Virus record (IMG/VR): IMGVR_UViG_3300020171_000124
Location: 1-25,551 of that record
Source: a virus
Taxonomy: Duplodnaviria > Caudoviricetes
Reading direction: 5' to 3' (one strand)
Length of the DNA: 25,551 nucleotides
In this document: one piece after another, positions 4,711-24,981 of the stretch
Layout of the letters: every line of letters starts with the position of its first letter
Numbering within the stretch: position 1 is the stretch's first letter
The notes under the pieces: model-generated
Databases searched by the model: none
Seen by the model: only the letters and a program-made list of their open reading frames with translations
Told to the model about the DNA's origin: nothing
Translations under genes and position numbers: made by a program

Positions 4711-4953
4711 ATGACTCGATTCGCCCTGTGTTTCGCCGCCGTCTTGGCCCTCTGGGTGGGCCTGATCTTCTGGTTTGCCGGGCCTGCGGAAACGCCCGGG
4801 AGCGGCCATTGCCCGTCTTGCGGCTGGGCCTATGTCTTCCCGAAGGAGCAGTTATCACCTGGCGTGCAGGTCCTCCTCGCGGTCCCCTGCGACCAGTGCG
4901 GCAAGACCGCTCTTGTGCGTGATTGGCTTCAGCCATCTCGTCAGTCCGAATAG
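4711..4953 (+). CDS. Small membrane-anchored Zn-ribbon protein (moron-like)
   Basis: N-terminal hydrophobic helix followed by CPSC...CDQC. It has its own promoter and RBS and is the only credible plus-strand gene. Confidence 0.75.
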   Translation: MTRFALCFAAVLALWVGLIFWFAGPAETPGSGHCPSCGWAYVFPKEQLSPGVQVLLAVPCDQCGKTALVRDWLQPSRQSE

Positions 4954-6572
4954 TAAATAGTGATGGAAACGACGGAAACTGTCGCGGTGTCATAACCCGT
5001 GCAAGCTGCTTGCAACATGACTCCAAACGCCGCGCTGTTTGCTTCTGCTACCGTGGTGATCTGTCCCCACTTGTCGTACTTCGTGCCGTAGGTGTACTCT
5101 GTCGCGCCAATCGCCCACGAACCGGCCGCGGCTTGATCGGTTCCAGTCCCCGCTCCTCCGTTGTCCGTCAACCATACGTGGCTGTCGACGTATGTTCCGA
5201 GAGTACAACTCTTCGTGATCTTGACGACGATCCCGTGGATTTCTGCGCCACCCGGGATGACGAAGTCGAAGTCATAAGCGTAGAGGTACTGCGTGAGGTT
5301 CGCCCCGGGGTTCATCCCGTCCACTGTGCACGGAAACGGCGTCCCAACCGACCATGCCCACTCTCCTGAGAGCGGAGCATTGATTGTGGCCGTGGCACCC
5401 ATTAGCCACGACGATTCTCCTGACACCGAACTAGAAAACTCTATTGATTGGGACGTGTTAGTGATCATCGTTGACGAAGACGTGGTTGAGCTTGACGAGC
5501 TGGATGACGACCGCGACGACGTGCTTGACGAGCTGAACGCGATCACGGTACTACTGCTGCTGGATGACGTGCTGCTTGACGTGCTGCTGCTTGACGTGCT
5601 GCTGGACGACGTGTGCGTGAAGACCGTCGACGACGACGACGACCCGCTTGACGGGCTCAGCGGGCTCTGGCTCGACGGGCTGGACGAAGATGAAGAAGAG
5701 CAAGACGACGAGGATGTCGAACTCGACGACCGGCCGGTACTCGTGCATGCGCTCGACTGCTGGCCTGAACTCCACGATGAGCATGTCGAGCACTCCGTCG
5801 AACCGCGCGTGCTCATGGAACTAGTCGACGACGACTGCGAAAGCTCGTCGAACCCACTGGATGTCGAACTCGACTCATAAGACGACTTCGACGATTGCGA
5901 GGAACTCGTGCTGCTACTGTAGGTTATGATCGTTGACGAGGACGAACTGCTGGAGAATGTGATAACCGTCGAACTCGACGTGGAGCACGATGAAGACGAG
6001 GATGAGTAGCTTGAAGACGTTGACGCGCTGCTCGTGCTCGACTCCACGTCCCCCGCGTTGCCGATCACCGCCACCTGGAAGTGGATGTCGGTGCTGGTGC
6101 CGTCGTGCTGCACCCGGAAGTTCTGCGCCGTCGGGGACAGCGAGTAGCCGTCCACCGGCGCGTCCAGTATCAGACACCCGCCAGGCTTCACTGTGTTCTT
6201 GCCTGCCGCGCTGCTCCCCCAGGGCTCCGTCAGCGGGTCGCCGATCCCGCAAGGCCCCACCAGGATGTCGTCCGTCTCCACCGTCGCTAGGTTCCGCACC
6301 ATGACGGCCCGGATCGTCTCGAACGGCAGCAACTCCCCGAACTGGTCCTTCAGCCCGTTGAACAACTCGATGTCTTGCCGGTACGGCCCGGTCTTGATGA
6401 GCGTGTATTGCCGGCGGAACAGCAGGTTGGCCTGGTTGTCGCCCGTGCCGTTGGCGTAGGCGGTTGCCTGCGATACGGTGTTCGTCTCTTTGGTCGCGGC
6501 GATGGCGTCCGTCAGCGAGTGGATGTACTCGATGTCCGCCGCCAGGGTCCCGTCGAACTTGCGCTCGCCCAT
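4941..6572 (-). CDS. Putative virion protein: conserved N-domain + poly-Ser/Thr tract + C-terminal beta-rich domain
   Basis: The ~170-aa N-domain is paralogous to 6588..7574. A ~210-aa Ser tract is followed by a globular C-terminus (FDFVIPGGAEIHGIVVKI...ITIYY). AAGGAGG RBS. Confidence 0.85.
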   Translation of the reverse strand: MGERKFDGTLAADIEYIHSLTDAIAATKETNTVSQATAYANGTGDNQANLLFRRQYTLIKTGPYRQDIELFNGLKDQFGELLPFETIRAVMVRNLATVETDDILVGPCGIGDPLTEPWGSSAAGKNTVKPGGCLILDAPVDGYSLSPTAQNFRVQHDGTSTDIHFQVAVIGNAGDVESSTSSASTSSSYSSSSSSCSTSSSTVITFSSSSSSSTIITYSSSTSSSQSSKSSYESSSTSSGFDELSQSSSTSSMSTRGSTECSTCSSWSSGQQSSACTSTGRSSSSTSSSSCSSSSSSSPSSQSPLSPSSGSSSSSTVFTHTSSSSTSSSSTSSSTSSSSSSTVIAFSSSSTSSRSSSSSSSSTTSSSTMITNTSQSIEFSSSVSGESSWLMGATATINAPLSGEWAWSVGTPFPCTVDGMNPGANLTQYLYAYDFDFVIPGGAEIHGIVVKITKSCTLGTYVDSHVWLTDNGGAGTGTDQAAAGSWAIGATEYTYGTKYDKWGQITTVAEANSAAFGVMLQAACTGYDTATVSVVSITIYYSD

Positions 6573-6587
6573 CGGTCATCCCTCCCT

Positions 6588-7574
6588 TTACGCGCCGGTT
6601 GAGAGGGACGATGAGGACTTCGAGCACGACGAGCTTGACGCCGACGAGGACGAACTCAGGCGGAACGAGATCGACGAGCACGATGAGGACGACGAGACCG
6701 ACTTCGATGACGACGTGGACTTCGACGACGACGAAGACGAGGAGAACGTGACGATGGAGCTGGACGTGCTCCTGGTCGAACTGCTTCTTGACGACGAGGA
6801 CGACGAGCTGAACGTCACAATCGACGACGATGATGAGGATTTGGTAACAATTGTGGACGAAGACGACGAGGATGCCGTGCTCTTCGAGCTGGACGAGCGC
6901 GTCGACGAAGACGACGTTGACTTGCTGCTGCTGAACGACGAGGACTTCGACGAGGATGAGGACGAGGACTTCGACGATGCGGACGACGCCGTGGACGCCG
7001 AACTGAGACCCACGCTGGATGTGCTGCATGACGACGACACCAGATCGCCCGTCGTGCCCCAGATCACGATGTCGAACGTGATGGACCCGCTCGTTCCGGC
7101 GTAGGCAACGCGGAAGACCTTGGCAGTTGCGGTCACCGCGTAACCTGCCACGGGCGAGTCCAGGAAGAGGCAGCCGCTCGGCTTGACCGTGTTCTTGCCG
7201 GCAATCGCGTCGCCCCAGGGCTCGATGAACGGGTTGGCCACGCTCTGCGGCCCGACACTCAGGTTGTCGCCTGCCGTCGTGGATAGATTGCGGACCAGGA
7301 TGCCCTTGACGAACTCGAAATCCAGGTCGTCCCCGAAGATGTCCAACAGCGTGTCCCGCAGGGTGAGATCCTGGTTCGGGCTCCCGCTGGTGACGGTGTA
7401 CTGCTCGCGGTACACTGCATTGGCCTGACCGGACGCCTTGCCGGTGGTGTAGACTGTCGCGTTCTTCAGCGCGGACGAAGACTCCGTCGGCGTCCCCAAC
7501 GTGTCCACTCGGCGGTAGACGTAGGTGATTGAGGCCGTCGCGGTCCCCGTCCAGCTTTTCGTCCCGACTGCCAT
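6588..7574 (-). CDS. Putative virion protein: conserved N-domain + C-terminal poly-Ser tail
   Basis: Shares QAN, D.FG..L.FE, VRNL, VGP, EPWG and AGKNTVKP.GCL.LD.PV.GY motifs with 4941..6572. ~150-aa Ser tail. GAGGAGG RBS. Confidence 0.85.
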   Translation of the reverse strand: MAVGTKSWTGTATASITYVYRRVDTLGTPTESSSALKNATVYTTGKASGQANAVYREQYTVTSGSPNQDLTLRDTLLDIFGDDLDFEFVKGILVRNLSTTAGDNLSVGPQSVANPFIEPWGDAIAGKNTVKPSGCLFLDSPVAGYAVTATAKVFRVAYAGTSGSITFDIVIWGTTGDLVSSSCSTSSVGLSSASTASSASSKSSSSSSSKSSSFSSSKSTSSSSTRSSSSKSTASSSSSSTIVTKSSSSSSIVTFSSSSSSSRSSSTRSTSSSIVTFSSSSSSSKSTSSSKSVSSSSSCSSISFRLSSSSSASSSSCSKSSSSLSTGA

Positions 7575-11641: not shown

Positions 11642-13243
11642 TCAGGTCTGCCAGTTGTCGCTGTAGGCCGCAGCCGACCCGGAGGTCAACTTGCCGCCCC
11701 AGCGGGCCCTGGTGATGATCTCGGTCAGGTTCGCGCGGGCCAGCGTGTCGCCGGCGGTCTCCACGCGGACGTTCATGCCCAGCCGCCGATACATGCGGTA
11801 CCGGCTCAGGTTGCAGAAGAACGCCACGGTGTTCGCCATGTCGTTCTGGATGGCCACCGCCGAGCCGTCGGCCAGCTCGTACGAACTCCACCGCATGCCG
11901 AACGCCCGGGTCTGCCAGCCGGACGCCTCCGCGATGCTCACCGCCCGCTGGTAGCTGGTGTCGTTCATCACGAACCGGCACCGGTTGAGCGGCGTGCGGT
12001 ACGGCAGGGTGACGCCGAAGTAGAGCTTCTCGAAGTCGACCACCTGCGGGGCCGCGTTCGCGCCTCCCGCCGGGTTGCCGATGTCGGTCATGCCCGAGGT
12101 GGCGTTGACGAGGCCCTGCGGCTCCGTGGTCCCGTCGCCGTTGGCGATCTGGTTGTCCAGCCATTCCTGGTACTTCTCACCCAACTTCTGGGTGATGATC
12201 GCGGCGATGTTGACCGGCGAGTCCTCCTGGAAGTCGTTGCCGATCTGGATCGCGGCCACCGCGTTGTAGATCGTGGTGTCGAACGCCGCGATGAACGTGG
12301 TGGTGTCGAACAGGCTGATGGCCGTCCCCTCGGCCGTGCCCGACGTGACGGTCACGTTGCCGATGCTGAACCCCTCGACCCGGCGCCCGCGCGTCAAGGT
12401 CTGAGTCTCGACCAGCGGGAAGAGCTGGCCGTAGAGCACCGGAATGGTGATCACCGCGTTGTCGAACACGATGGGGGCCGCCTCGAGCCCGCCCGACGTG
12501 CTGTCGTCCAGCAGGGCCTTGCGCTCGAAGTCGAACAGTTTGCGGCCGTCGATCTCGTACTTCTCCCCGGCGGCCACGCCCGACCACTTCTCCTCGTGCA
12601 GGGCGTAGTCGAGCAACTGCTTGTCGTGCTCCGTCATCTGGAGCCAACGGGGCAGCCGTCCGTTGCACCCGGCCGCGCAGGCAAACTTGAAGTAGGCGCC
12701 GCTGATGGCCCGGTCCCTCTCGCTGGACGACTCCAACGGGATGCGCTCCTGGCCCGGCAGGAATGCCGGCTGGCCGCGCAGGTGGACGTGCTTCGTGTCC
12801 ATCGGATAGCACAGGTGCGTGCGGCTGCTGGAGTAACTCTCGACGGGGCTCTTGACCCGCGCCTGGGTCTTCTCCCCTTCGCTGGTTCCCGCCAACACCT
12901 GCGCCGGCGTGTGCTGGCTGTCCGGCTTGACCCGTTCCATGATCCCACTCATGGCCTTGGTCACCGCGCCGTCGATCTCGTCGGCCAGGGAGACCTTCTT
13001 CTCCGTCTTGGCCATCTTCTCGACCAGCGGGGCCATCGCCTTCTCGACCGCCTTGGCGACGGCGTCGCCCAGCTCGTCCTTCGGGTCCGGCTCGTCGGGC
13101 GCGGTCAGCTCCGCGATCTTCGCCGCGTCGAGCTTGCCCTCGGTGATGGCCTTGGTCATCGCTCCGAGGAACTCGGTGTCGCTGGCCGCCTCAGCAGCAT
13201 ACTTCTGCTCGATCAGCCAGCCCTTCATCTTCTTGGTAAGCAT
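11642..13243 (-). CDS. Major capsid protein, HK97 fold, with long N-terminal delta/scaffold region
   Basis: 'SGGLEAAPIVFDNAVI', 'LDNQIANGDGTTEPQGL', 'FVMND' and 'FFCNLSRY..YRR' motifs; follows the protease; GAGGAG RBS. Confidence 0.92.
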   Translation of the reverse strand: MLTKKMKGWLIEQKYAAEAASDTEFLGAMTKAITEGKLDAAKIAELTAPDEPDPKDELGDAVAKAVEKAMAPLVEKMAKTEKKVSLADEIDGAVTKAMSGIMERVKPDSQHTPAQVLAGTSEGEKTQARVKSPVESYSSSRTHLCYPMDTKHVHLRGQPAFLPGQERIPLESSSERDRAISGAYFKFACAAGCNGRLPRWLQMTEHDKQLLDYALHEEKWSGVAAGEKYEIDGRKLFDFERKALLDDSTSGGLEAAPIVFDNAVITIPVLYGQLFPLVETQTLTRGRRVEGFSIGNVTVTSGTAEGTAISLFDTTTFIAAFDTTIYNAVAAIQIGNDFQEDSPVNIAAIITQKLGEKYQEWLDNQIANGDGTTEPQGLVNATSGMTDIGNPAGGANAAPQVVDFEKLYFGVTLPYRTPLNRCRFVMNDTSYQRAVSIAEASGWQTRAFGMRWSSYELADGSAVAIQNDMANTVAFFCNLSRYRMYRRLGMNVRVETAGDTLARANLTEIITRARWGGKLTSGSAAAYSDNWQT

Positions 13244-13282: not shown

Positions 13283-15013
13283 TCAGCGCTTGGAATTGGA
13301 ACGCAGAAACCTGTCGATCATTGCCTTCGCCTTCGCCCTCTTCAACCCGTCTATCTTGCTGTCGAGCAGCGCCTTCACCGCCCGCAGTTGCTTCTCGTCG
13401 CCGATCTCCGCGACCTTCTGGACAAGGACCTCCAGCGCGGATGCCTGCTGCGTGGTGGCCACCTCGGACACGCTGGACTCGACCGACTCCACCAGGTCCA
13501 GCACCTCGCGCATGCCCGAGTGCGCCTCGCCGATCTTCTCGTGGCACTCGCGCAGCCGCGCCTCGTTCTTGCGGCTCAGCACGCGGCCGTACTTGACGCC
13601 TTCCGGCTCGTGCTCCTTGCCGCCCGGCGCCTGCCCCGTCTCCCGCGCGATCTTGGCGCACAGCCCCTTGGCCTGCTCCTCCGACTTGCCGAGATCCACA
13701 AAGTGAGCGACGCAGCCATCGAACCCGCCCTTGAATGTTCCGTCCTCGTTCATGTGCGGGTCCTTCGGCTCCTCCTTGGCCTTCGACTCGGCCATCGTCT
13801 TCGCCACTAGGCCGAGGTCCTCGTCGTCGCCGCTGGACTCCTCCTCCTCATCGGCCGGCTCGTCCGCAGGCGTGTCGCCCTGTCCCTCGCGCTCGACCGG
13901 GGCTGACTTCTCCGGCTTCTCCGCTGGCCACTTGCCGACGCACTGCTTGTGCAGCCACGCGCAGAACCCCTCCTTGTTGTCCCCGACCTCCGCCTCGAAC
14001 TTGCCAAGGTCCTTCTCCATACAGCGGGTGAAGAAGTCGGCGTCGTCGCCGAGCGACTCGCACAGGCCCTTCATCATCTGCTCGGGCATCTCCTTTAGGT
14101 CGAGCTTGACGGCCTTGAAGCCCTTGGCCCTTGCCGCCTGCGCGCACGTCGGGCAGAACTTCTCCAGCACCTCGACCGGGATGCCCGTCTCACCGGACGA
14201 CTTGACCCAGGCATCCACCCGGGCCTGCCACGGGTCCACAGCCGCCGCCGCGAACACCTTCTGCCTCTGGTCGTACTCCCGCCCGGCCCACGCCTTCATC
14301 AGCGGATCGTGCAGCTTGCCGCGGGAGAACGCCGTGATCACCGCGTCCGTGTTGGACGGCACCGTAACCAGCGACTCCTCCATCACCTCGAACCGCTGCA
14401 CGTCGAACCCGGCAGTCGGGCACTTCTCCGGGTCTACCGCCTTCGCCATCGGCTGGAACTTCAGCGGCCGGAACCCGTGGGAGAACCGCAGCGCCCCGAA
14501 CTCGACCAGCGTGGCCGCGTCCCGGCCAGCCTCCGTGTCCACGATGGCCGTCGCCACCTTGACCTCCTTCGGCGAGCGGCTCAGCACGCGCAGCATCCGT
14601 CCCAAGGGCATCGGGAGCATGTGGTGCCAGAGCAGCGGCATGTTCGGGTCCAACTCCGCGCCATCGGAGCGCATGATGTCCCCGTCGCGGTCCACCTTGC
14701 TGCTCGTGAGCACGTTCTCCAGCACCATGAGCGTGTTCTTCGGGGCCTTCACGTCGAGTCGCTTGCAGAAGTCCTTGATGCCGGAGCCAGCCTCGAACAC
14801 GTCCGCGACTGTCTCCTCGTTCGAGTACGTCAGCTTCGTCGCCGCGTCCTTCAGGATCGCCGCCTTCTCCGTGTCCGTCTGGCCGGAGCACTCCAGCACG
14901 CCCGCCACGTACCGGTCGGCGGTGACGATGCCATACCCGAAGCGCGTCGCCGTCATGCCGCGATCCCGCACGGCCTTGACCAGTTCGGCGTTCTGCTGCT
15001 CCCAGTCTGCCAT
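13283..15013 (-). CDS. HK97-family prohead protease with long C-terminal extension
   Basis: DRDGD, PLLWHH (catalytic His), PLGR, FSHGF (catalytic Ser) and EESLVTVPSN motifs. Confidence 0.9.
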   Translation of the reverse strand: MADWEQQNAELVKAVRDRGMTATRFGYGIVTADRYVAGVLECSGQTDTEKAAILKDAATKLTYSNEETVADVFEAGSGIKDFCKRLDVKAPKNTLMVLENVLTSSKVDRDGDIMRSDGAELDPNMPLLWHHMLPMPLGRMLRVLSRSPKEVKVATAIVDTEAGRDAATLVEFGALRFSHGFRPLKFQPMAKAVDPEKCPTAGFDVQRFEVMEESLVTVPSNTDAVITAFSRGKLHDPLMKAWAGREYDQRQKVFAAAAVDPWQARVDAWVKSSGETGIPVEVLEKFCPTCAQAARAKGFKAVKLDLKEMPEQMMKGLCESLGDDADFFTRCMEKDLGKFEAEVGDNKEGFCAWLHKQCVGKWPAEKPEKSAPVEREGQGDTPADEPADEEEESSGDDEDLGLVAKTMAESKAKEEPKDPHMNEDGTFKGGFDGCVAHFVDLGKSEEQAKGLCAKIARETGQAPGGKEHEPEGVKYGRVLSRKNEARLRECHEKIGEAHSGMREVLDLVESVESSVSEVATTQQASALEVLVQKVAEIGDEKQLRAVKALLDSKIDGLKRAKAKAMIDRFLRSNSKR

Positions 15014-15025
15014 GAGGATTATTCC

Positions 15026-16324
15026 TTACAGTGCGGACGATGAGGACGTGCTGTGCGAGCAACTGGAGCACGACGAAGAGGACGAATTGCTGCTCGATGA
15101 CGATGAACTGCTGAACGTGATCACCGATGACGACGAGGATGACGATGAAGAGGAACTGAACGTGACCACCGATGATGATGATGAGTATATGATCACTGAT
15201 GAGCTTGATGTTGAACTCGACGAAGAACTTGACGAGGAGAACGTGATAATCGACGAACTCGACGATGAAGAAGACGAACTGAATGTGATCATGGACGATG
15301 AAGACGTACTTGACGACGACGAGAATGTGATCACCGACGACGACGATGAACTTGACGAAGAGAAGGTGATCACCGACGACGACGTTGACGATGAGGAGGA
15401 ACTCACACTTGATGCCGTTGAGGATGATGTTGACGATGAACTGTACTCTGCCACCGAACTCGTGGCCGGTGAAGATGTGCATGCGCTGCTGCTCCGACTC
15501 AGCACGCCAGTCGAAGTGGTACTCGAACTGCTGGTGCTTGAGGACGACCCTGACGATCCGCCGGTCGATGCCGTGGACGAAGTGCAGGACGACGAGGAAC
15601 CAGTGCTCGTGGAAACGGATGAACCGCTGGAGTAGCTGGCCGAGGTGCAACTCGACGACGATGTTGACGACGAGGACGTTGACGATGAGGAATTCGTGTG
15701 TGACGAACTGGATGTCGAGGAGGAAGACGTGCCCGACGACGAGGACGAGGACGTGTGGCTCGTACTGCTGCTGCTGTTCGTGCTGAAGGATGTCTTTGTC
15801 TGGGTCGACTGCGTGATGCTCGACTTGGACGAACTGCTCACGGACGACTTCGACAGTGATGAAGTGGACGTGGACGACGAGGAGCTGACGTACGGGCCGC
15901 TGGTCGTGGACACGGAACTGGCGGACTGCGTTGAATTCGACGAGGACGACGTGCTGGAGCTGCTGGAAGATGTGGCCGTCTCCGACGTGCTCGATGCCGA
16001 GCAGTACTCGATGGAATTGACTACGATCGGGTCCGGCGCCTTCACATACGGCGAGTGGGCGGCGACGACCAGTTGCACCCAGGCGGACTCGTTTCCATCG
16101 TTCGTCACGTCCTGGCACATGAATAGGAGCGTTGTCTCCTCCGCCACCTCGATCTCGTACTCCGTGGTGGCAGCGGTCAGCATCGTCTCGACGAGCTTCG
16201 CCGTGCTGCGGAACGTCGCTGGGTCCGCGTCGATCGTGTTCTGGTTGTAGACGCGGAAGTTCCTGTAGGCGATGATGGAGGCGTCGGCACTCGGCAACCG
16301 CACGGTCACTAGCACGTTGGCCAT
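15026..16324 (-). CDS. FN3/Ig-like N-domain + ~325-aa poly-Ser/Thr tail, putative virion protein
   Basis: Start placed at ATG 16324 (GGAG RBS; the upstream track extension is a terminator hairpin). The 'DGNESAW' motif is FN3-like. VITF repeats occur in the Ser tract. Confidence 0.82.
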   Translation of the reverse strand: MANVLVTVRLPSADASIIAYRNFRVYNQNTIDADPATFRSTAKLVETMLTAATTEYEIEVAEETTLLFMCQDVTNDGNESAWVQLVVAAHSPYVKAPDPIVVNSIEYCSASSTSETATSSSSSSTSSSSNSTQSASSVSTTSGPYVSSSSSTSTSSLSKSSVSSSSKSSITQSTQTKTSFSTNSSSSTSHTSSSSSSGTSSSSTSSSSHTNSSSSTSSSSTSSSSCTSASYSSGSSVSTSTGSSSSCTSSTASTGGSSGSSSSTSSSSTTSTGVLSRSSSACTSSPATSSVAEYSSSSTSSSTASSVSSSSSSTSSSVITFSSSSSSSSSVITFSSSSSTSSSSMITFSSSSSSSSSSIITFSSSSSSSSSTSSSSVIIYSSSSSVVTFSSSSSSSSSSSVITFSSSSSSSSNSSSSSCSSCSHSTSSSSAL

Positions 16325-16338
16325 CGCCTTCACTCCAC

Positions 16339-16392
16339 AAAAAAAGAGCCCGGCTGCCGCGACCCTCGTCAAGTCGCAGCCACCAGGCTCTT
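16339..16392 (-). terminator. Intrinsic terminator/attenuator
   Basis: AAGAGCC-TGG-TG-GCTGCGAC/loop/GTCGCGGC-AG-CCG-GGCTC followed by T7, ending just before the RBS of 15026..16324. Confidence 0.72.
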
Positions 16393-16414
16393 GTCTCAAG
16401 ACGCCCGAGACTTC

Positions 16415-16770: not shown

Positions 16771-17301
16771 CTACACATTCCTTGGTTTTCGGATGCAAGC
16801 CAGCTTTCCGGAGCATGCGTACAACTCCACGGGCAACGCGATCTTCGCGGCGAACTCGTCAACGGCCCGTACAACGTTCTCTAACTTCCGACGCCGCGAA
16901 CGGTTATAGTCGTGCGTGCACATCAGACCGCCCGGCGCAACGATCGGCCACCACGCCGACAAATCTGCCGCGACACTCGTATAGTCATGGGCCGCGTCAA
17001 CCAGCACGACATGCTGGCTCTGCTTGGCAGATTGCGCAGCCACCTCGACAGACAACCCGACTCGAATGACAACCCGGTTTCCAAACGGCGCAAGAGCCGC
17101 GCGCGCGGTCGTCTCGTGCGCCGGATCTTCCATCCAACAGTCCACGGCAGTCGCGAGAAGAAAGTCGCATCGTGTAAGCACTTGCACGAGAGTCTGTCCC
17201 TCGTCAACGCCGACCTCGACGTATCGGAGCATGTCGATCCCCAGCGATTGCCGTACTTCCTCGCATAGCATCACGACGACATCGTGCATCGGTCTTGCCA
17301 C
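16771..17301 (-). CDS. Class I SAM-dependent methyltransferase (Methyltransf_24-like)
   Basis: VEVGVDEGQT, VDCW, VLVDAAHDY and PGGLMCTHDY motifs. Confidence 0.88.
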   Translation of the reverse strand: MARPMHDVVVMLCEEVRQSLGIDMLRYVEVGVDEGQTLVQVLTRCDFLLATAVDCWMEDPAHETTARAALAPFGNRVVIRVGLSVEVAAQSAKQSQHVVLVDAAHDYTSVAADLSAWWPIVAPGGLMCTHDYNRSRRRKLENVVRAVDEFAAKIALPVELYACSGKLACIRKPRNV

Positions 17302-17313
17302 CCGAAAACCTCC

Positions 17314-17904
17314 TTACGATTTCCTGCCGACGGCCACTGTGTCGAATACGTCCCCGCCGCCGATTTGCATGGTCTTGACCGCCGGGTCCGGGTCGAGGTG
17401 CTCGAAGGCGGCCATGAGCGTCTCCAGCCCGGCCGCCGCGTGCAACTCCCGCATCCCGTGCGGCAGTATCCTCCAGCCGTCTATCGGCTGCGGCCCGTAC
17501 CGCCATGTCACGGGTGTGATCGTCAGCAGGAGTCCGGCCGGTTTCAACACCCGGGCCATCTCTGGCACCAGCAGCCACGGGCGCCGCACGTGCGCGAGCA
17601 CCTGCCCGCTCAGCACGATGTCGTACACGCTGTCCGGAGAGTCGATCCGATAGTCCTCCGGTTGCTTAATGGTGGCGACTGACAGCTCGCCCGCGTGAGT
17701 CCCGCGCCTGCGCGCCCGATCCATCCGCCGCTCGATCCGCTCCCACTTGCGGTCGGTGACGTGGTAGTGGACCCTGGCCACCTCGCCTATCGCCAGGATG
17801 TATGGGCTCGGGTACCCGCCGGGTCCGACCTCAAGGATCGTCTGGCCGTCCCTGAAGTGGCCCAGCAGATGCTTGCGGAAGAGGAGGAGGCTGTTCGCGT
17901 GCAT
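17314..17904 (-). CDS. Class I SAM-dependent methyltransferase (Methyltransf_11-like)
   Basis: ILEVGPG, YDIVLSGQVLAHV and EMARVLKPAG motifs. Confidence 0.88.
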   Translation of the reverse strand: MHANSLLLFRKHLLGHFRDGQTILEVGPGGYPSPYILAIGEVARVHYHVTDRKWERIERRMDRARRRGTHAGELSVATIKQPEDYRIDSPDSVYDIVLSGQVLAHVRRPWLLVPEMARVLKPAGLLLTITPVTWRYGPQPIDGWRILPHGMRELHAAAGLETLMAAFEHLDPDPAVKTMQIGGGDVFDTVAVGRKS

Positions 17905-17909
17905 CGGCG

Positions 17910-18080
17910 TCAGTCCCCTTCCGTCGGATCGAATCCGAGCATCGCCGCCACGTCGTCCGGCGTCTCGATCTCGTCATCGTCGGGGTCTTCCTCTTCGGCA
18001 AGTTCGGCGCGCCAGTCCAGCGATCCCTCGTCAACCTCTCCGAACCGCACGTCGGTGTCCAGTTCCGGCACGTCCATCAT
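17910..18080 (-). CDS. 56-aa highly acidic protein, candidate DNA mimic/topoisomerase inhibitor
   Basis: ATG 18080 with GGAGG RBS and ATGA overlap with the upstream stop. 23/56 residues are D/E, with 2 Arg and no Lys. Confidence 0.75.
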   Translation of the reverse strand: MMDVPELDTDVRFGEVDEGSLDWRAELAEEEDPDDDEIETPDDVAAMLGFDPTEGD

Positions 18081-19591
18081 GGCTTCCTCCATTTGCTCCA
18101 CACGGTCGGGTCGATGTAACTTTGTAGCGCGACGGTCGGGGTGTTCCCCAACTTCGCCGCGACCACCTTTGCTATCGCCTTGACTTGTCGTTTGTACTCC
18201 CGGTCCGTTGCGGGCGCCTTGGCCTTCTTGATCTCGATTATGGCGACGGACGTTCCCTTGAGAGTACGGAAGTCCTTCGGCTTGAACTTACCCCCGTCAA
18301 GGCTGTGGACATACTGCCGAAGTTGCGAGTCCGTGACGGAGAACAGTTTTTCCCGCGGCGACCGTTGCTTCGCACGGTTTAGCAACATTTTCGCCAATCC
18401 CTTGTCGTCCACCGGTATCGAGAGGGCCACGCCTTTCTTCCCGACGAACTCCAGGATCGCGCCTTCCTTGGTTGGTTTCACGTGCCGCGCCTCCAGCGTC
18501 GTCGCGCCGTATGCCTGCTTTTCGGCCCCGGTGTCTGCCTCCGAGCCCGGCCGGATGCCGGTGGCCATTATCAGGGCTGTGACGACCGCTTCCTCCTGTC
18601 CCGACTTCACGTTGGCCTCGTTCTGCGCCGCGATTGCGCCTTGTTTCTGCATGAGTTCCCGAACGCGACTGAACTTCAGGGCGGCTGTCCGTGTCCAGTA
18701 TGCCTGGCTGTAGATCCGCTGCTCGCGCCCCTTGGAGTCTTTCCCCGCCACCAGCATTTCCGAGTTCGGATTCTTCGCCACCCGCACGCCGGTCCACGCG
18801 GGCGGGATGCGCACGGCAGATATATGCGCCGGCAACGCGCGACCATCGCTTTGTCGCCACTCCTCTTTGTCCTTGTCGTAGACCGCTTCCGAGGATTCGT
18901 CGCTCCATCGTCCCCGCTCGTCCCGCGGCTCGTTCGGGTCGAACGCCTTGCTGGTGTCCACCCCGCCAGACTCGTCGATGTCGATGTACGCCAGGCACCG
19001 GCAGGATATTCTCTCTTCGGGCGGAAGATTCATATGACCAGGGTATGGGACCTCTACCACCCCTTCCTTCGTGTCAAGCACGAAGTTCGCGTCGGCCCCT
19101 TCCACGGGCGAGTAAGGCGGGCCGGCGTACGCGATATGCGAGTCCCGCACAAACTCGTCGCCTGCATTCATCCAATACTTCAGTACCTTGATACCGGCCT
19201 CTTCCAGCTCAGCACCCTGGACCACGTGCCCGGCGTTGAGTGCACCGGTCATTTCCGTGCGCGCTATCCGTTCCGCCCGCACGTTCCCGTCCGCCCCCAG
19301 CGCTTCCTGCACCGCCTCCACCGTCTGGTCCAGCGATCGCCCTTCCGTGATCCCGTCCCGCACGTTGGCCTCGATCTTGTCCAGGATCGACTGCGGCATG
19401 GCGTCCCACCACTCGCCGTCCATGCTGGCCTCGACCTCGTTGACGATGGCCTGGCGCACGGTGTCGGGGATGGCCCAGTCCTCAAGCCAGGCGGCGGTAG
19501 CGAGTTGCTCCGCAGAGATGTCCTCGCCCTGCTCGGCGCGCTCCGCGAGCGTGTAGTAAGAGCCGTTCAGGGGTGGCTTCTTCTTGGCCAT
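18077..19591 (-). CDS. MuF (SPP1 gp7-like) head morphogenesis domain fused to a type IB DNA topoisomerase
   Basis: MuF motifs: RAERIARTE, KYW...DEFVRDSH, YPG...ISCRC. TopIB motifs: IPPAW, GKDSKGREQRIY, GIRPG (R), YGATTL, FVGKKG (K), KDFRT (R), LGNT (N), SYIDP (Y). Confidence 0.92.
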   Translation of the reverse strand: MAKKKPPLNGSYYTLAERAEQGEDISAEQLATAAWLEDWAIPDTVRQAIVNEVEASMDGEWWDAMPQSILDKIEANVRDGITEGRSLDQTVEAVQEALGADGNVRAERIARTEMTGALNAGHVVQGAELEEAGIKVLKYWMNAGDEFVRDSHIAYAGPPYSPVEGADANFVLDTKEGVVEVPYPGHMNLPPEERISCRCLAYIDIDESGGVDTSKAFDPNEPRDERGRWSDESSEAVYDKDKEEWRQSDGRALPAHISAVRIPPAWTGVRVAKNPNSEMLVAGKDSKGREQRIYSQAYWTRTAALKFSRVRELMQKQGAIAAQNEANVKSGQEEAVVTALIMATGIRPGSEADTGAEKQAYGATTLEARHVKPTKEGAILEFVGKKGVALSIPVDDKGLAKMLLNRAKQRSPREKLFSVTDSQLRQYVHSLDGGKFKPKDFRTLKGTSVAIIEIKKAKAPATDREYKRQVKAIAKVVAAKLGNTPTVALQSYIDPTVWSKWRKP

Positions 19592-19863
19592 CAGGACTCG
19601 TCCGCCTCCCCTTCAGTTTCATTGCCACCGGCCATCCCCGCCTCGTCCCTGGCCTCGCTGGGGTCGTAGCCCTTGGAAAGCAGTTCCGCGGCCTTGCCCT
19701 TCTCGACCGCGACCTCTTTCAGAAATTCATCATAGGCCGCGTAATCTGGCGATTCGGTTGTAATCTCGACAACCCCATCACCTATTACGCCGTTACCTTC
19801 AGCGCGAGCCTGCACCAGGATTGTACGGTCATCTACTCTCCTGGGAATTGCTGTGCGACTCAT
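19591..19863 (-). CDS. Small hypothetical protein, candidate immunity protein ending in a degenerate linker motif
   Basis: Coupled at both ends (ATGA and TGATG overlaps). It ends KAAELLSKGYDPSEARDEAG. Confidence 0.7.
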   Translation of the reverse strand: MSRTAIPRRVDDRTILVQARAEGNGVIGDGVVEITTESPDYAAYDEFLKEVAVEKGKAAELLSKGYDPSEARDEAGMAGGNETEGEADES

Positions 19864-20963
19864 ATCTTTAGCCCACCAAAATAATCATCTAGTATCTTCG
19901 CGTCCTCGCTTGTGTAAATCTTGCCGGACGGGACCATGCTTCCATCCTTGAGTCGCCCTAGTTTCCCTGCACCCCATACCGCATAGCCCTCAGCAAACGC
20001 CTCTTGATAGTGCCAAGTATATGGTCCAAACAAACGAACCATCGTCTGCCGAACCTTCTCAAACGCAACCGTGCCGGCATCCCGTTCGGAGAACTTCTGA
20101 CCGTGCAGTAGTTTTCCACCAGTGTCAAGGCCATGCGCAGCTTCATGCCATGCCACGCTGACGCTTCCGTGCAATCCCTTTCCTAACACTATCGTGTCGC
20201 CCACCTTCGATATTCCCATTCCCGCAGCGTCGTCCCATGTGTACCCGGACGGCCATCCACTCGGTTGCACGCCTTTCAAATGCTGCATGTGATCCTGTTC
20301 GGTAATAGGCCGATCTCCTACGCAAATGCCTCCTGCCGTTTTCGCCAACAATTCCTGATGGCTCTTTGGCATCGCCGACAGGTCCTCTAAGTAATGTGCA
20401 ACGGAGGGCGAATCCTGGTCGACGACATCTAGTTTCGCCTGCAATGCGTCCACTATCTCAAGCGACTTGTTCCACTCATTGGTTCTCGCGCCGCCAACTT
20501 CGCTTTCGTGCGGTTTAGTAGGTAGTGGTTGCGCCCCGCCGCCTGCTCCGAACCTCCCGCGGGCGTCCCTCGGGTGTTGGGCCTCCTCCCAGCCCTTAGA
20601 GAACAACTCGAACGCCTTCCTCATCCGCCTCTTGAACAGCTCCCGCCCCGACAGGTAGCCCGTCACGATCCCCTGCGCTATCTGCCGCGCCGCCGCCACC
20701 TTGATCACCCCTAGCCACTCCTTGGGGTCGAACACGCGCTCCGCGACGTGCCGCGCCTTCACAGGGTCGTCGAACAGGTCAGGATGCTCCCTGGCCAGCG
20801 TGCGCAGCCGCCGGCCCGTCTCCTTGGCGATGTCCGCGAACACCCGGCGCATAGCGTCGCGCATGGCCGCCTCGTGCCTGTCCGCCTGCTTGACCCACAG
20901 GTCGGCTGCCACCTTGCAGAGCGGGTGGGGACGGCGCATCTTATATCCGTTATTAGATGGCAC
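19860..20963 (-). CDS. Helical (probable MuF N-terminal) region fused to a zincin metallopeptidase domain
   Basis: Helical N-terminus, then linker WEEAQHPRDARGRF, then WHEAAHGLD (HExxH) and EAFAE (third-ligand motif as in anthrax lethal factor-like peptidases). The 3' part is visibly lower in GC. Confidence 0.78.
   Translation of the reverse strand: MPSNNGYKMRRPHPLCKVAADLWVKQADRHEAAMRDAMRRVFADIAKETGRRLRTLAREHPDLFDDPVKARHVAERVFDPKEWLGVIKVAAARQIAQGIVTGYLSGRELFKRRMRKAFELFSKGWEEAQHPRDARGRFGAGGGAQPLPTKPHESEVGGARTNEWNKSLEIVDALQAKLDVVDQDSPSVAHYLEDLSAMPKSHQELLAKTAGGICVGDRPITEQDHMQHLKGVQPSGWPSGYTWDDAAGMGISKVGDTIVLGKGLHGSVSVAWHEAAHGLDTGGKLLHGQKFSERDAGTVAFEKVRQTMVRLFGPYTWHYQEAFAEGYAVWGAGKLGRLKDGSMVPSGKIYTSEDAKILDDYFGGLKI
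20939..20957. promoter_or_regulatory. 19-bp palindromic motif, copy C (TCTTATATCCGTTATTAGA)
   Basis: 18/19 match to copy A; located at the extreme 5' end of 19860..20963. Confidence 0.75.
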
Positions 20964-20966
20964 GGC

Positions 20967-21296
20967 TCAGCTCCCGGCGTAGTTGGCGACGCAGTCGTGC
21001 CGCTCGTAGAGCACCGTCCGCCCCGCCTTCACCCCCTCGATGAACAGCCAGTACGACGCCCCCTTCGTCAGGTTCGCCGTCACCGTGTACGGCAGCGTCC
21101 CCTGGTACTTGCCGTTGCTGGCCGCCACGTAGGCCATCGCCACGTCCGTGGCATCGGTGATCTCGACGTGGTCCTCGTCCGTCAGCGTGAATGTCACAGT
21201 GGCGTCATTCACGTAGGTTGTGCCGTCGGTGGCCAGGACCAGCCCGCTCACCTCGACCAGGTTGTCGACGCCTATCGCCAGCGTGTGCGTGCTCAT
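20967..21296 (-). CDS. Small beta-rich (Ig-like) putative virion protein
   Basis: Start placed at ATG 21296 (ATGA overlap): MSTHTLAIGVDNLVEV...ATVTFTLTD...GKYQGTL. Confidence 0.72.
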   Translation of the reverse strand: MSTHTLAIGVDNLVEVSGLVLATDGTTYVNDATVTFTLTDEDHVEITDATDVAMAYVAASNGKYQGTLPYTVTANLTKGASYWLFIEGVKAGRTVLYERHDCVANYAGS

Positions 21297-22543
21297 GCTC
21301 CCACCACCCTGAATGTTCCAGAGGACCATGCCCTGAGAGACGGACTGCCAGCAGACCACGCGGCCGCGCGAACGACAGCGCCGCACCACGACTTGACCGC
21401 GATAGTGCCAGTGCAGCGGCGAGGTACGGTCGGCAGCAGGCCGCTCGTGCTCGACGAGTATGAAGACAGCGACGAGGAGGAGAACGCCTCGCTCGATGAC
21501 GTTGTCGACGAGGATGAACTGAACGCCTCGCTACTGGACGACGTACTAGATGACGATGAGAACGCTTCACTTGAACTGCTGGTGGAGGACGAACTGGAAA
21601 ACGCTTCACTGGAAGAGGACGTTGACGACGACGACGAAAACGCTTCACTCGTTGACGTGCTGGTGCTGCTGGAAGAACTAGAGAACGCGCGACTACTGGA
21701 ACTTGACGAACTGAATTCCTCACCCGCCACTGCCGCCGCGTACACCCGCTGCCACACGGGCTCGATCAGGCCGCCAAGGGATGCGTCGGAGGGATTGGCG
21801 AGGGTCTGGATTTCGGGGAGGGAGAGGGCACGATTCCAAAGTCCGGCATCGCTCAGTCCACCTTTCCAATACAACCCGTCATATGCTCCGTAACGGCCAA
21901 GCGAAAAGCCGTAGGGCGTTCCCCCCATCGCAACGGTCTGTGCCACCGGGGAACCAATCAGCGTGCCGTTGCGGTAATAGCGAATGAATGAACCGTCCAC
22001 TGTAGCGGCGATGTGAGTCTGCGAGCCAATTGGCCAATTGGCTGCGATATACTCCCCAGCAAATTGAGCGACCTGAAACGCTGCGCCGGAACTCACGTAA
22101 ATACTCAGATTAATAGTGGAGGCTCCACCGAAGATTCCCCACACGGAATTGTCTGTGCCTGCCGCGTCGCCCGAAAATATAATCCCCGCGGGTTGCATTG
22201 TAATCGGGTTTACAAATGCGGCGATTGTCCAGTTCAACGGCTTTCCCAATCTGGTGCCACAATCAACAAAGTTCTTCGTACCACCATGTACTGTCCCAAA
22301 CCGTCCCAACCGCGGAATCCACGTCCAGCCGCTCGTCGCCGTGTTCGGCCAGGAGAAGTTGGTGAGCGTGCCGTGGTTACCGTTCAAGTTTCCGGGTCGT
22401 GCCGAGTCGCAGTACCACGGACCACCTGGGGCGTTTCCGCCGCCGAAGAAGATAAGTGAGCCGTCCCGCACCCGCGGGTGGCGCGCACTCACCTGCCAGA
22501 GTTCCGGCCGTTGCGTCATTCGTGGGTGCGAGCGTCCGAACAT
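21293..22543 (-). CDS. LamG/concanavalin A-like domain protein with Ser-rich repeat tail
   Basis: NGNHGTLTN, WTIAAFV, THIAATVDG..IRYYRNG and WKGGLSDAGLWNRALSLPEI motifs, followed by (S5TS4EAF)n. Confidence 0.88.
   Translation of the reverse strand: MFGRSHPRMTQRPELWQVSARHPRVRDGSLIFFGGGNAPGGPWYCDSARPGNLNGNHGTLTNFSWPNTATSGWTWIPRLGRFGTVHGGTKNFVDCGTRLGKPLNWTIAAFVNPITMQPAGIIFSGDAAGTDNSVWGIFGGASTINLSIYVSSGAAFQVAQFAGEYIAANWPIGSQTHIAATVDGSFIRYYRNGTLIGSPVAQTVAMGGTPYGFSLGRYGAYDGLYWKGGLSDAGLWNRALSLPEIQTLANPSDASLGGLIEPVWQRVYAAAVAGEEFSSSSSSSRAFSSSSSSTSTSTSEAFSSSSSTSSSSEAFSSSSSTSSSSEAFSSSSSTSSSSEAFSSSSSTTSSSEAFSSSSLSSYSSSTSGLLPTVPRRCTGTIAVKSWCGAVVRAAAWSAGSPSLRAWSSGTFRVVGA
21483..21691 (-). repeat. 39-bp-period coding tandem repeat (SSSSSTSSSSEAF)
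   Basis: The AACGC anchor lies at 21483, 21522, 21561, 21600, 21639 (39-bp steps) and 21684. Ser codons differ between units. Confidence 0.85.
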
Positions 22544-23496: not shown

Positions 23497-24981
23497 CTAG
23501 ACTTGCTCCTCATCCTGGTTCGCCTCGTCCGTCGGTGGCTTCTCCTGACCGAACGGCTGCGGCTGGCCGAACGGCCCGCCCTGCGGCGGCTCCGGCTTGG
23601 CGGGACCGGGGAATTCGTCCCCGCCCTCGTCCAGCGGTGGCATCAGCATGAACTTCTCGCGGTACTCATCCTTCGTCACCACCTGCAAGGTGCCAGCGGC
23701 CTGCCACTTCTTCAACTCATAGTCCGGGTCCTTCGTCTCCGCCTCCTCCAGCCAGATCACGATGTCCTCGTCCTCGCGCGCGTAGTGCTCCGTCATCACC
23801 TGCCCGAAGAGCGTGGCCAACGGGTTGACGACGTTACTGACGAAAATCTGATCGGCCACTGCCGCCTGCGCGCGGTTGACGCCAGTGATCTCGCCGGCAA
23901 TCACTGGATTGCAGCCGAGTGCCTGGAAGATGCGGCTCTTGACGGCCGTGCCCGAGTTGAGGTAGTCCATCTCCTGCGGCCCGAGCGAGAGCCGGTCGAC
24001 GCCCTCGATCATGCCGTCAACGATCAGCGGCTCGTTGTAGTTGACGACGCCCTCCCAGATCGCGCGGGCCGCCTCGATCAGCTCGCGCCGCTGATCCGCC
24101 TCCAGGACAGGCCGCTCGCCCTCCGTGCCGGGTAGCATGCCAGGAAGCCGGCCGACGCGCAGGGCCACGTTGGGGAAGAATGAGTTCTTGAACTGCCGCC
24201 ACTGCGCCGCCTGGATGGCCTCGTCAGCCGCCACCGCCGCGCTCTGGCTCTGCACCGGCGAGCAGTACCCCAGCGGGTCCGCCGGGTCCGGCAGGCAGAA
24301 CACGGCGACTTCCTCCGGCGGCACGTCGTACCAGCCCGTCGAGAGGCCGCTCATCGGCTGTATGCGGAAGTGGTCGAACAGCTTCTTGCGCGTGTGGACC
24401 GGCGTCACCCATGACGACGGCAGCGGCCAGACCTGCATGGCGCCCTTCACGCGCGGCATCCACCAGCAGCCCTTGCCGGTGATCTCCATCGAGGCCGCCG
24501 TCGAGTAGAACAGCCCCCACGTCACCATCGCCTCGTTGGGCGCGCGGATGGCGGTGAGCAGCTCATGGTCCTCGATCAGTTCCACCTCCTGGTCCATCTC
24601 CTTGACGTAGGCGGGGCCGCGCATCTTCTGCCAAGGGGTGAGCAGTTTCGTCCTTCGCCGCCAACCGAGCTTCTCCGCGAGGGCGGGCATCCCCTTCAGT
24701 TTGCGCCCGATCCGCAGCGGGAGCGCCGCCATGCGGGTGGCGATCCGGTTGATGGCGACGTAGGCCCAGCCGCGGAACCGCCTGTACTGGTCGTCGTGGC
24801 GCGCCGCCTCGTCGGAGAACCCGAGCATGGAGGAGAGGCCCAGTGAGGCCGCGATCATCGCGCCTGGGCCGCCTATGCCAGGCCCGAGGGCGTTGGCCGC
24901 CTGCGCCTTGTACGTGTCCAGCTCGCGGGAGCGCGACTCGAACTGCCTGCTAAGGAACGTGTCCCTGAGTGCCACCGGCAT
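23497..24981 (-). CDS. Portal protein (HK97 family)
   Basis: 'AYVAINRIATRMAALPL', 'PNEAM', 'ITGKGCWW', 'VWPLPSSWV', 'GYCSPV', 'QFKN', 'EMDYL..I..ALG.NP' and 'TKDEYRE' motifs; GGGAGG RBS. Confidence 0.92.
   Translation of the reverse strand: MPVALRDTFLSRQFESRSRELDTYKAQAANALGPGIGGPGAMIAASLGLSSMLGFSDEAARHDDQYRRFRGWAYVAINRIATRMAALPLRIGRKLKGMPALAEKLGWRRRTKLLTPWQKMRGPAYVKEMDQEVELIEDHELLTAIRAPNEAMVTWGLFYSTAASMEITGKGCWWMPRVKGAMQVWPLPSSWVTPVHTRKKLFDHFRIQPMSGLSTGWYDVPPEEVAVFCLPDPADPLGYCSPVQSQSAAVAADEAIQAAQWRQFKNSFFPNVALRVGRLPGMLPGTEGERPVLEADQRRELIEAARAIWEGVVNYNEPLIVDGMIEGVDRLSLGPQEMDYLNSGTAVKSRIFQALGCNPVIAGEITGVNRAQAAVADQIFVSNVVNPLATLFGQVMTEHYAREDEDIVIWLEEAETKDPDYELKKWQAAGTLQVVTKDEYREKFMLMPPLDEGGDEFPGPAKPEPPQGGPFGQPQPFGQEKPPTDEANQDEEQV

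What the first reader, a model, noticed from the sequence alone, without database searches (positions are those of the whole stretch)
17910..19591. MuF head protein fused to an intact type IB topoisomerase, with a coupled acidic DNA-mimic-like partner
Seen: one ORF joins a MuF domain to a bacterial/poxvirus-type TopIB retaining all five catalytic residues (R, K, R, N, Y). A 56-aa peptide with 23 D/E residues follows through an ATGA overlap. Established: MuF proteins such as SPP1 gp7 are low-copy, portal-associated head proteins, and many carry variable C-terminal toxin domains followed by small immunity genes. Acidic DNA mimics (Ocr, Ugi) inhibit DNA-acting enzymes. Inference: the topoisomerase is packaged in the capsid and either relieves torsion during packaging/ejection or acts as an injected effector, and the acidic peptide keeps it off in the producing cell.
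Basis: partly seen in the sequence, partly recalled or inferred. Interest (0 to 1): 0.88.

Follow-up and report, generated by a model that had tools for sequence, protein, structure and literature searches.

The report
Phage-head topoisomerase with dedicated acidic partner
This uncultured phage fuses a DNA-relaxing enzyme (a type IB topoisomerase) to a head protein, and a tiny acidic protein encoded right behind it accompanies the enzyme in every related phage checked and is predicted to plug its active site, so the enzyme is likely carried in the virion and likely injected with the genome, with the peptide as its likely off-switch.

Summary
Confirmed. ORF 18077-19591(-) is MuF (71-200) plus a type IB topoisomerase with R347/K385/R442/N483/Y492; a 56-aa, 23-D/E peptide follows through an ATGA overlap. 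The conserved unit is TopIB plus peptide, not MuF-TopIB. All 122 of 122 testable loci of this phage TopIB clade carry the peptide fused or within 1.1 kb. A TopIB-blind scan found TopIB upstream of 67 of 71 peptides; the rest are edge cases. Anchors vary: 36 portals of four families and 9 MuF among 101 extensions. Binding is supported: co-fold 0.66 against best control 0.09 (mark reached by 116/157 solved, 2/215 mismatched pairs), with an interface over the catalytic residues. At one predicted contact, TopIB Q490K pairs with peptide T53D in 12 of 142 pairs with no mismatch. The linker motif before TopIB also leads ADP-ribosyltransferases, NUDIX and GNAT enzymes, favouring an injected effector over an in-capsid swivel. 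Inhibition, packaging, cleavage and injection are inferred. No paper found in 10 searches; this scan noted the same system in another genome (e1-5929734).

The parts
18077..19591 (-). MuF-tag-TopIB fusion ORF, 504 aa
18992..19381 (-). MuF (Phage_Mu_F) domain, residues 71-200
   Evidence: E 6.5e-12; head-morphogenesis PHROGs; coordinates
18905..18949 (-). Linker tag, residues 215-229: Lys-Ala followed by the aromatic-...PRD..GRW motif; candidate head-protease site and cargo tag (inferred)
18080..18904 (-). Type IB topoisomerase (N-terminal and catalytic domains); R347, K385, R442, N483, Y492; ends 12 aa after the Tyr
17910..18080 (-). 56-aa acidic partner peptide (no Pfam family), ATGA-coupled to the TopIB stop; predicted binder and likely inhibitor
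19860..20963 (-). Upstream gene with the same Lys-Gly + PRD tag (20550-20597) followed by a zincin metallopeptidase (HEAAH, Pfam ATLF family); a second tagged cargo
19591..19863 (-). 90-aa acidic ORF coupled to both neighbours, carrying a decayed copy of the tag; possible partner of the zincin (untested)
23497..24981 (-). HK97-type portal (context)
   Evidence: PF04860 E 9.4e-27
13283..15013 (-). S78 prohead protease with long C-terminal extension; candidate releasing enzyme (inferred)
11642..13243 (-). HK97-type major capsid protein with a leader of about 240 residues ending near a Lys-Ala pair (context)

Best explanation
This gene joins a MuF head-protein domain to a type IB topoisomerase with all five catalytic residues, and the acidic 56-residue gene behind it is a fixed partner predicted to bind across the active site and likely to inhibit it; the enzyme is likely packed into the head, likely cut free at the Lys before its linker tag, and likely injected with the genome, where it would relax supercoils. 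Steps: (1) Shown: the fusion, the catalytic residues, the two-way linkage. (2) Predicted: the peptide's TP.DV..MLGFDP hairpin docks in the groove beside the catalytic-Tyr helix, which the short C-terminus of these enzymes leaves open. Its acid run (residues 31-39) lies over the phosphate-binding Arg/Lys/Asn. (3) Inferred: this keeps the ATP-independent relaxase off while late genes are expressed, so it does not undo gyrase-made supercoiling in the producing cell. (4) Inferred from SPP1 gp7: MuF binds the portal and brings 1-2 copies inside the prohead. (5) Inferred: the S78 protease cuts at Lys-Ala and frees tag-TopIB; DNA displaces the peptide or it is left behind. (6) Inferred, least certain: with so few copies the enzyme most likely acts locally, as a swivel on the entering phage DNA during first transcription, much as poxviruses package TopIB with their early transcription machinery. 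My separate odds: direct binding about 0.9; inhibitory if binding about 0.75; packaged about 0.85; released and injected if packaged about 0.7.
For: Linkage: 122 of 122 eligible loci have the peptide fused or within 1.1 kb; 0 of 3 cellular-like TopIB clusters have it. 67 of 71 peptides found by a TopIB-blind DNA pattern have TopIB upstream. ATGA overlap in 53 of 106 pairs. Binding: score 0.66, best of 3 controls 0.09; mark reached by 116 of 157 solved and 2 of 215 mismatched pairs (counts hold only roughly, own alignments); runs agree in at least 50% of contacts; partner pLDDT at least 54. The interface includes R347, K385, K386, K439, N483, L489, Q490. Lys at 490 goes with Asp at peptide 53 in 10 of 10, neither in 96 of 96, with 7 changes on the tree and at least 6 forced by well-supported branches. 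Held-out pairs: 2 K/D, 34 neither, 0 mismatches. Q490-T53 is a predicted contact. Net charges of enzyme and peptide core anticorrelate (rho -0.48; 30 opposite vs 15 same among 53 sister pairs, p 0.036). Toxin-antitoxin-like asymmetry: the peptide persists beside broken TopIB (L102, L198) and is convergently oriented in L064 and L068. Packaging: 46 of 101 N-terminal extensions are portal, MuF or DUF2213; SPP1 gp7 binds the portal at 1-2 copies per capsid (PMC5576092, PMC6316719, passages). Injection: the same PRD tag precedes 8 ART, 3 NUDIX, 3 zincin and 2 GNAT domains among 44 other tagged segments; T4 Alt ART is packaged and injected (PMC5512222, passages). Release: Lys lies 1-2 residues before the tag in 4 of 4 HK97-portal loci against 3 of 34 PF06381-portal loci (p 0.0005). 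Vaccinia packages its topoisomerase together with the transcription enzymes (PMC6336343, passages).
Against: No activity, virion or expression data, and no cultured phage carries this clade (1 distant match among 50,697 records). The co-fold lists interface residues but its best-ranked pairs do not include an acid-to-catalytic-residue pair, so which peptide residue touches R347/K385 is my inference. In the model of a natural fusion the peptide helix aligns up to human Top1 residue 757, the site of a normal C-terminal helix, which also fits a split subunit. The protease-site test rests on 4 HK97-type loci including the window, used a pattern designed after seeing the data, and the Asp counterpart is not significant (26 of 34 vs 1 of 4, p 0.065). 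48 of 122 TopIBs match none of my tag patterns, and 28 of 44 tagged segments have no Pfam hit. The window's peptide has no Lys, so a Lys-specific protease would not destroy it; how inhibition is lifted is unexplained. 23 of 83 large loci show no portal or MuF with my limited profiles.
Confidence: 0.42

Rival explanations
1. Injected, peptide-inhibited effector aimed at the host or its defences: it relaxes host DNA or leaves covalent nicks, like a MuF polymorphic toxin with its immunity protein.
For: [quoted passage not shown] The tag is shared with ARTs and other host-modifying enzymes. Peptide is kept beside broken TopIB.
Against: 1-2 copies per virion (MuF) or about 12 (portal; recalled) seem too few to outrun host gyrase (inference). 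The enzyme is highly conserved (45-58% identity across anchors) and enzyme and peptide keep one shared motif, unlike fast-diversifying toxin-immunity pairs.
Confidence: 0.2
2. In-capsid swivel: the enzyme stays tethered at the portal vertex and relieves twist during packaging or ejection; the peptide only silences it before assembly.
For: Portals are the commonest anchor (36 of 101, four families), anchors were exchanged many times (31 label changes), and TopIB needs no ATP (established knowledge).
Against: A candidate cleavage site and tag separate enzyme from anchor; 27 short tag-led forms have no anchor; the tag also leads enzymes that need NAD+, acetyl-CoA or nucleotides; cultured phages package DNA without this enzyme.
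Confidence: 0.17
3. Split topoisomerase: the peptide is the severed C-terminal element that completes or activates the enzyme rather than inhibiting it.
For: 108 of 114 clade members end 11-22 residues after the Tyr, short of other TopIBs. Six natural in-frame fusions exist (L079, L144, L153, L156, L169, L222). In the fusion model the peptide helix aligns up to human Top1 residue 757. Linkage is near 1:1.
Against: No profile similarity to the C-terminus of one cellular TopIB tested (probability 0.1%). The alignment to Deinococcus TopIB does not reach the peptide helix. The predicted interface covers the phosphate-binding residues and the peptide is strongly acidic. A distant TopIB of Bacteroides phage BS162P1 is also short after its Tyr and has no such peptide in the 7.5 kb examined.
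Confidence: 0.13

Closest known systems
MuF polymorphic toxins (Jamet et al. 2017, PMC5576092; passages read)
   Same: MuF1 (PF04233) near the portal, C-terminal enzyme, small downstream ORF.
   Different: Cargo is a topoisomerase (the word does not occur in the main text; supplements not checked). The cassette moves among four portal families, MuF and anchor-less forms, and the partner is one conserved family.
Phage polyvalent proteins and MuF/portal-fused effectors (Iyer et al. 2017, PMC5512222; passages read)
   Same: Fusion to MuF or portal; co-occurring ART-PolyVal, InPase, NUDIX, GNAT and zincin domains; proposed packaging and injection.
   Different: 'Topoisomerase' appears only in the reference list (supplements not seen). 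In the passages seen there is no acidic TopIB partner and no site-plus-tag linker.
Bacterial and poxvirus type IB topoisomerase (Deinococcus 2f4q/3m4a; variola 2h7f/3igc)
   Same: Two-domain fold (Z 20.9 and 20.6), catalytic pentad with Asn as in Deinococcus; poxviruses package theirs in the virion (PMC6336343, passages).
   Different: Separate phage clade (about 30% identity to cellular and plasmid TopIB), about 27-45 residues shorter at the C-terminus, fused to head proteins, with a dedicated partner.
Acidic DNA-mimic inhibitors (T7 Ocr, PBS Ugi; recalled, Ocr also named in PMC5512222)
   Same: Small, acidic, predicted to occupy a DNA-phosphate-binding site.
   Different: No sequence family match. 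It targets the phage's own enzyme, not a host enzyme, and is predicted to be a largely unstructured peptide anchored by a hydrophobic hairpin.
Heterodimeric Leishmania TopIB (PMC3759442, search listing and abstract start; PDB 2b9s)
   Same: Precedent for a TopIB completed by a small second chain.
   Different: There the small subunit carries the catalytic Tyr (recalled); here all five catalytic residues are on the large chain.

Membership tests
Type IB topoisomerase | TopIB catalytic-core and N-terminal domain fold | tested here: met
Type IB topoisomerase | Catalytic pentad R, K, R, H/N, Y | tested here: met
   R347, K385, R442, N483, Y492; kept in 130, 129, 129, 127 and 127 of 130 relatives
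Type IB topoisomerase | C-terminal helical segment after the catalytic Tyr, as in the solved members | tested here: not met
   Ends 12 aa after Tyr; model ends at Deinococcus 300-301 of 346 and variola 287 of 314. Whether this segment is needed for activity was not tested.
Type IB topoisomerase | ATP-independent relaxation through a 3'-phosphotyrosine | not testable with these tools
   needs an assay
MuF polymorphic toxin system | N-terminal MuF domain in a portal/head module | tested here: met
   portal 3.9 kb upstream on the same strand
MuF polymorphic toxin system | Small cognate ORF directly downstream | tested here: met
MuF polymorphic toxin system | C-terminal domain is toxic and neutralised by the small ORF | not testable with these tools
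   binding predicted; toxicity and neutralisation unknown
MuF polymorphic toxin system | Encoded by a temperate phage | tested here: inconclusive
   The 25.5-kb record holds only late genes; 11 clade members lie in genome-bin contigs, integration not checked
Phage polyvalent / head-delivered effectors | Effector domain fused to MuF or portal and shuffled with ART, NUDIX, InPase, GNAT, zincin domains | tested here: met
Phage polyvalent / head-delivered effectors | Present in virion and delivered to the host | not testable with these tools
   no cultured representative
Acidic DNA mimics (Ocr/Ugi type) | Acidic surface occupying the target's DNA-phosphate site | tested here: inconclusive
   interface list includes catalytic Arg/Lys/Asn and peptide 31-44, but pairwise acid-base contacts are not listed
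Acidic DNA mimics (Ocr/Ugi type) | Homology to a known mimic family | tested here: inconclusive
   no Pfam family for the window peptide; only single weak unrelated hits among 73 members; Atlas hits under 0.8
Split (heterodimeric) TopIB | Catalytic Tyr on the small subunit | tested here: not met
   Y492 is on the large chain; the peptide has no Tyr. The defining feature is recalled.

The most novel reading that the evidence does not exclude
A widespread, mobile phage cassette (protease site, cargo tag, C-terminally shortened TopIB, inhibitor) supplies the first dedicated protein inhibitor of a type IB topoisomerase. It docks where the enzyme's own terminal helix would sit and lays carboxylates on the scissile-phosphate residues. 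The enzyme is injected as a swivel for the entering genome, and the linker is a general 'cut here, eject this' signal whose cut residue tracks each phage's head protease.
Probability: 0.3. Interest if true: 0.9.

Novelty: new variant of a known kind. Interest (0 to 1): 0.76.

Why it matters
It would add DNA topology to the activities that tailed phages deliver from the head. It would give the first natural protein inhibitor of the TopIB fold that I could find in 10 library searches; human Top1, a drug target, shares the fold. It also offers a testable rule for how MuF- and portal-linked cargo is released. The K490/D53 pair gives a ready specificity-swap experiment, and both proteins are small enough for a direct relaxation assay.

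Tried and rejected
Assembly chimera: rejected, one contig of run X1 spans the region unchanged (may be the same sample) and the fusion type recurs. Peptide as a generic acidic ORF behind any effector: rejected. MuF-TopIB as an ancient fixed fusion: rejected, 9 MuF rows need 8 changes on a quick tree of 76 rows (at least 3 forced by well-supported branches; the careful tree did not finish). Alignment A3 placed the peptide's LGFDP on the enzyme's LGNTP motif; I treated this as an artefact, rebuilt the alignment (A4), and did not test the resemblance further. Column covariation overall is weak: top z 7.7 against 4.9-6.2 in 5 shuffles; only the Q490 pairs were followed up. My first distances for opposite-strand peptide hits were miscomputed and are corrected. 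The idea that the upstream zincin ORF holds the N-terminal half of a split MuF found no homologues. The 90-aa ORF has no sequence relatives; Atlas structure look-alikes are unnamed small proteins. No RNA holder listed. Peptide not found in cultured phages. The profile search of the peptide against 1.84 billion proteins was still queued, so its full range is unknown. Paper searches listed nothing on phage TopIB fused to head proteins or on a TopIB inhibitor peptide; subscription papers and the supplements of PMC5512222 and PMC5576092 were not seen and could list such a fusion. I found no paper on C-terminal deletions of TopIB or on Lys specificity of HK97-type proteases; that specificity is recalled.

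Full report
Observation. The window is a phage late operon on the minus strand: portal, head genes, S78 prohead protease, HK97-type capsid, connectors, and a probable tape-measure gene judged by eye. ORF 18077-19591 (504 aa) has Phage_Mu_F at 71-200 and Topoisom_I at 305-488 and aligns with Deinococcus and poxvirus TopIB over 246-501. R347, K385, R442, N483 and Y492 occupy the catalytic columns (roles recalled). An AlphaFold2 model (pLDDT 93.3) matches variola TopIB-DNA at Z 20.9, rmsd 3.8, 265 aligned. The model ends at variola 287 of 314, Deinococcus 300-301 of 346 and human 735: the protein stops 12 residues after the Tyr. The 56-aa peptide (23 D/E) starts in an ATGA overlap behind a GGAGG site. 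A contig of run X1 spans the region unchanged (may be the same sample).

A phage TopIB clade. The domain has 805 relatives at E 0.001 or better among 3378 candidates; the best 119 besides itself are 49-58% identical. Collection scans returned 3 + 80 (of 204) viral, 20 genome and 80 (of 237) metagenome loci, giving 133 clusters at 90% identity, the window's own record among them. Three clusters are cellular-type TopIB at about 30% identity. In the other 130 the pentad is kept in 130, 129, 129, 127 and 127 rows, and 108 of 114 measurable members end 11-22 residues after the Tyr. Among 50,697 cultured-phage records only Bacteroides phage BS162P1 matches (34%); it lacks the peptide in the 7.5 kb examined.

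Anchors are exchangeable. Of 101 N-terminal extensions scanned (at most 900 aa each), 36 hold a portal (25 PF06381, 4 lambda-type, 4 Mu-type, 3 HK97-type), 9 MuF (window included, two below the curated cut-off) and 1 DUF2213; others hold NUDIX, InPase or ART domains, and many have no Pfam hit. On a quick tree of 76 rows the seven labels need 31 changes (shuffled mean 40.3); MuF needs 8 for 9 rows. 13 of 19 anchor-less forms on loci of 8 kb or more have a portal or MuF on the same strand, and 60 of 83 large loci overall, with profiles built from my own hits.

The peptide is a fixed partner. I dropped 8 clusters whose contig ends too soon and the 3 cellular ones, leaving 122. A profile built from 106 of these peptides hits within 400 bases of the TopIB stop in 109 (the 106 match by construction). 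Of the other 13, three are in-frame fusions, one is a broken TopIB running into the peptide, eight lie 428-1105 bases downstream, and one (L068) lies convergently just after the stop. Hits at 15 bits or more elsewhere in these loci were limited to a second, convergent copy in L064. None of the 3 cellular clusters has it. In reverse, a DNA pattern for the commonest form of the peptide alone gave 87 viral matches, 71 distinct; 67 have TopIB sequence upstream (one only its first 50 positions, one only its last 19 at a contig edge). Two others lie at contig edges, one had only 300 bases fetched, and one sits in a circular record that carries TopIB at its other end. Many of these contigs are the same as. 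Two complete genomes (282 and 75 kb) hold one copy each. The family has no Pfam model; its conserved parts are F-G, D-W-R, an invariant-like DD pair (95-96%) and TP.DV..LGFDP.

Evidence for direct binding. Co-folding scored 0.66 against a best control of 0.09; the mark was reached by 116 of 157 solved and 2 of 215 mismatched pairs (roughly applicable, own alignments); runs agree in at least 50% of contacts and partner pLDDT is at least 54. This supports binding; it does not show it. The interface takes in peptide 31-53 and enzyme R347, K385, K386, K439, L481-V487, L489-S491, P495 and W498; the best pairs are Q490 and L489 against T40, P41, V44, L48, P52 and T53. Separately, the top covarying columns between 106 matched pairs were Q490 with T53, T40 and P41 (top z 7.7; shuffles 4.9-6.2). 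Lys at 490 goes with Asp at 53 in 10 of 10 and neither occurs in the other 96; the label needs 7 changes on a tree built without that column. In 36 further pairs, removed from the first set by exact peptide match only and biased to the common form, 2 are K/D and 34 neither. Net charges anticorrelate. In a model of the natural fusion L153 the last part of the peptide reaches pLDDT 82-85 while residues 286-325 are mostly under 50; it aligns up to human Top1 residue 757 but not to the Deinococcus C-terminus. I read this as an anchor helix filling the groove left by the short C-terminus, with the acid run over the active site. The same result keeps the split-subunit rival alive; against it are the acid run over the catalytic residues, no profile similarity to one cellular C-terminus, and convergent and orphan peptides.

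The linker. Between MuF and TopIB lies Lys-Ala followed by an aromatic-...PRD..GRW motif. The same motif follows Lys-Gly before the zincin peptidase two genes upstream, and a decayed copy lies in the 90-aa ORF between them. Of 122 relatives, 55 have this motif before TopIB, 19 another recurrent motif and 48 none by my patterns. The motif occurs 102 times on the coding strand and once on the opposite strand; Lys lies 1-2 residues before it in 4 of 4 HK97-portal loci and 3 of 34 PF06381-portal loci (p 0.0005), Asp within 3 residues in 1 of 4 and 26 of 34 (p 0.065). The sample of HK97-type loci is small and includes the window, and the pattern was written after seeing the data. Of 44 tagged segments not leading to TopIB, 16 have Pfam hits: 8 ADP-ribosyltransferases, 3 NUDIX, 3 zincin and 2 GNAT. 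These need cytoplasmic substrates, so I infer that the tag marks cargo meant for the host cell and that the residue before it is a head-protease site. Lys specificity of HK97-type proteases is recalled, not found in my searches; cleavage of internal head proteins by a prohead protease is documented for SPN3US (PMC10052503, passages).

Mechanism. Most likely the peptide silences the enzyme during late expression, MuF brings 1-2 copies to the portal inside the prohead as SPP1 gp7 does (PMC5576092, PMC6316719, passages), the protease frees tag-TopIB, and it enters with the genome and acts as a local swivel (0.42). Vaccinia packages its topoisomerase with the transcription enzymes (PMC6336343, passages). 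Rivals: host-directed toxin (0.20), tethered in-capsid swivel (0.17), split subunit (0.13). How inhibition is lifted is unexplained.

Known systems and novelty. It works like a MuF toxin-immunity pair or a polyvalent head-delivered effector. 'Topoisomerase' is absent from the main text of PMC5576092 and occurs only in the references of PMC5512222 (supplements not seen). Ten searches of the open library listed no report of this clade or partner; subscription papers are not covered. This scan noted the same MuF-TopIB and partner in another genome (e1-5929734), seen after my linkage tests; it is not independent support. Verdict: real, widespread, a new variant of a known kind, with a well-supported and easily tested enzyme-peptide pair; interest 0.76.

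Noticed in passing
window 19860-20963 and 19591-19863 (-): A second tagged cargo, a zincin peptidase (Pfam ATLF family, HEAAH), is followed by a coupled 90-aa acidic ORF: possibly a second effector-partner pair. No sequence relatives of the 90-aa ORF or of the first 120 residues of the zincin ORF were found.
   Followed up: partly
many loci, e.g. L006, L056, L121, L005, L033; proteins: Several short motifs other than PRD recur directly before TopIB (GH.F.GNQ, GG.GSG..GH.GRPG, CG.G.GG, WF..L...Q types); they may be alternative cargo tags.
   Followed up: partly
L064 (just after 10780) and L068 (6112-6273): Peptide gene in convergent orientation right after the TopIB stop; L064 has a second same-strand copy 1.1 kb on.
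   Followed up: partly
L198 and L102: TopIB is deleted or broken while the peptide is intact.
   Followed up: no
L079, L144, L153, L156, L169, L222: Natural in-frame TopIB-peptide fusions; in L079 and L153 the chain continues into another PRD tag and further cargo.
   Followed up: partly
window 18077-19591 residues 476-486 and peptide residues 44-53: The peptide's end resembles the enzyme's own helix-turn carrying N483 closely enough to mislead the aligner.
   Followed up: no
window 17314-17904 and 16771-17301 (-): Two class I SAM methyltransferase genes directly behind the peptide, inside the head module.
   Followed up: no
window 21293-22543, 15026-16399, 6588-7574, 4941-6572 (-): Four late genes with very long Ser/Thr tracts, one behind a LamG-like domain.
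   Followed up: no
window 13283-15013 (-): Prohead protease with a charged C-terminal extension of about 340 residues that includes a match to phrog_6439 (328-369).
   Followed up: no
L270 1827-2591 (Bacteroides phage BS162P1): Cultured phage with a distant 254-aa TopIB that lacks the N-terminal domain match and has no acidic partner nearby.
   Followed up: partly
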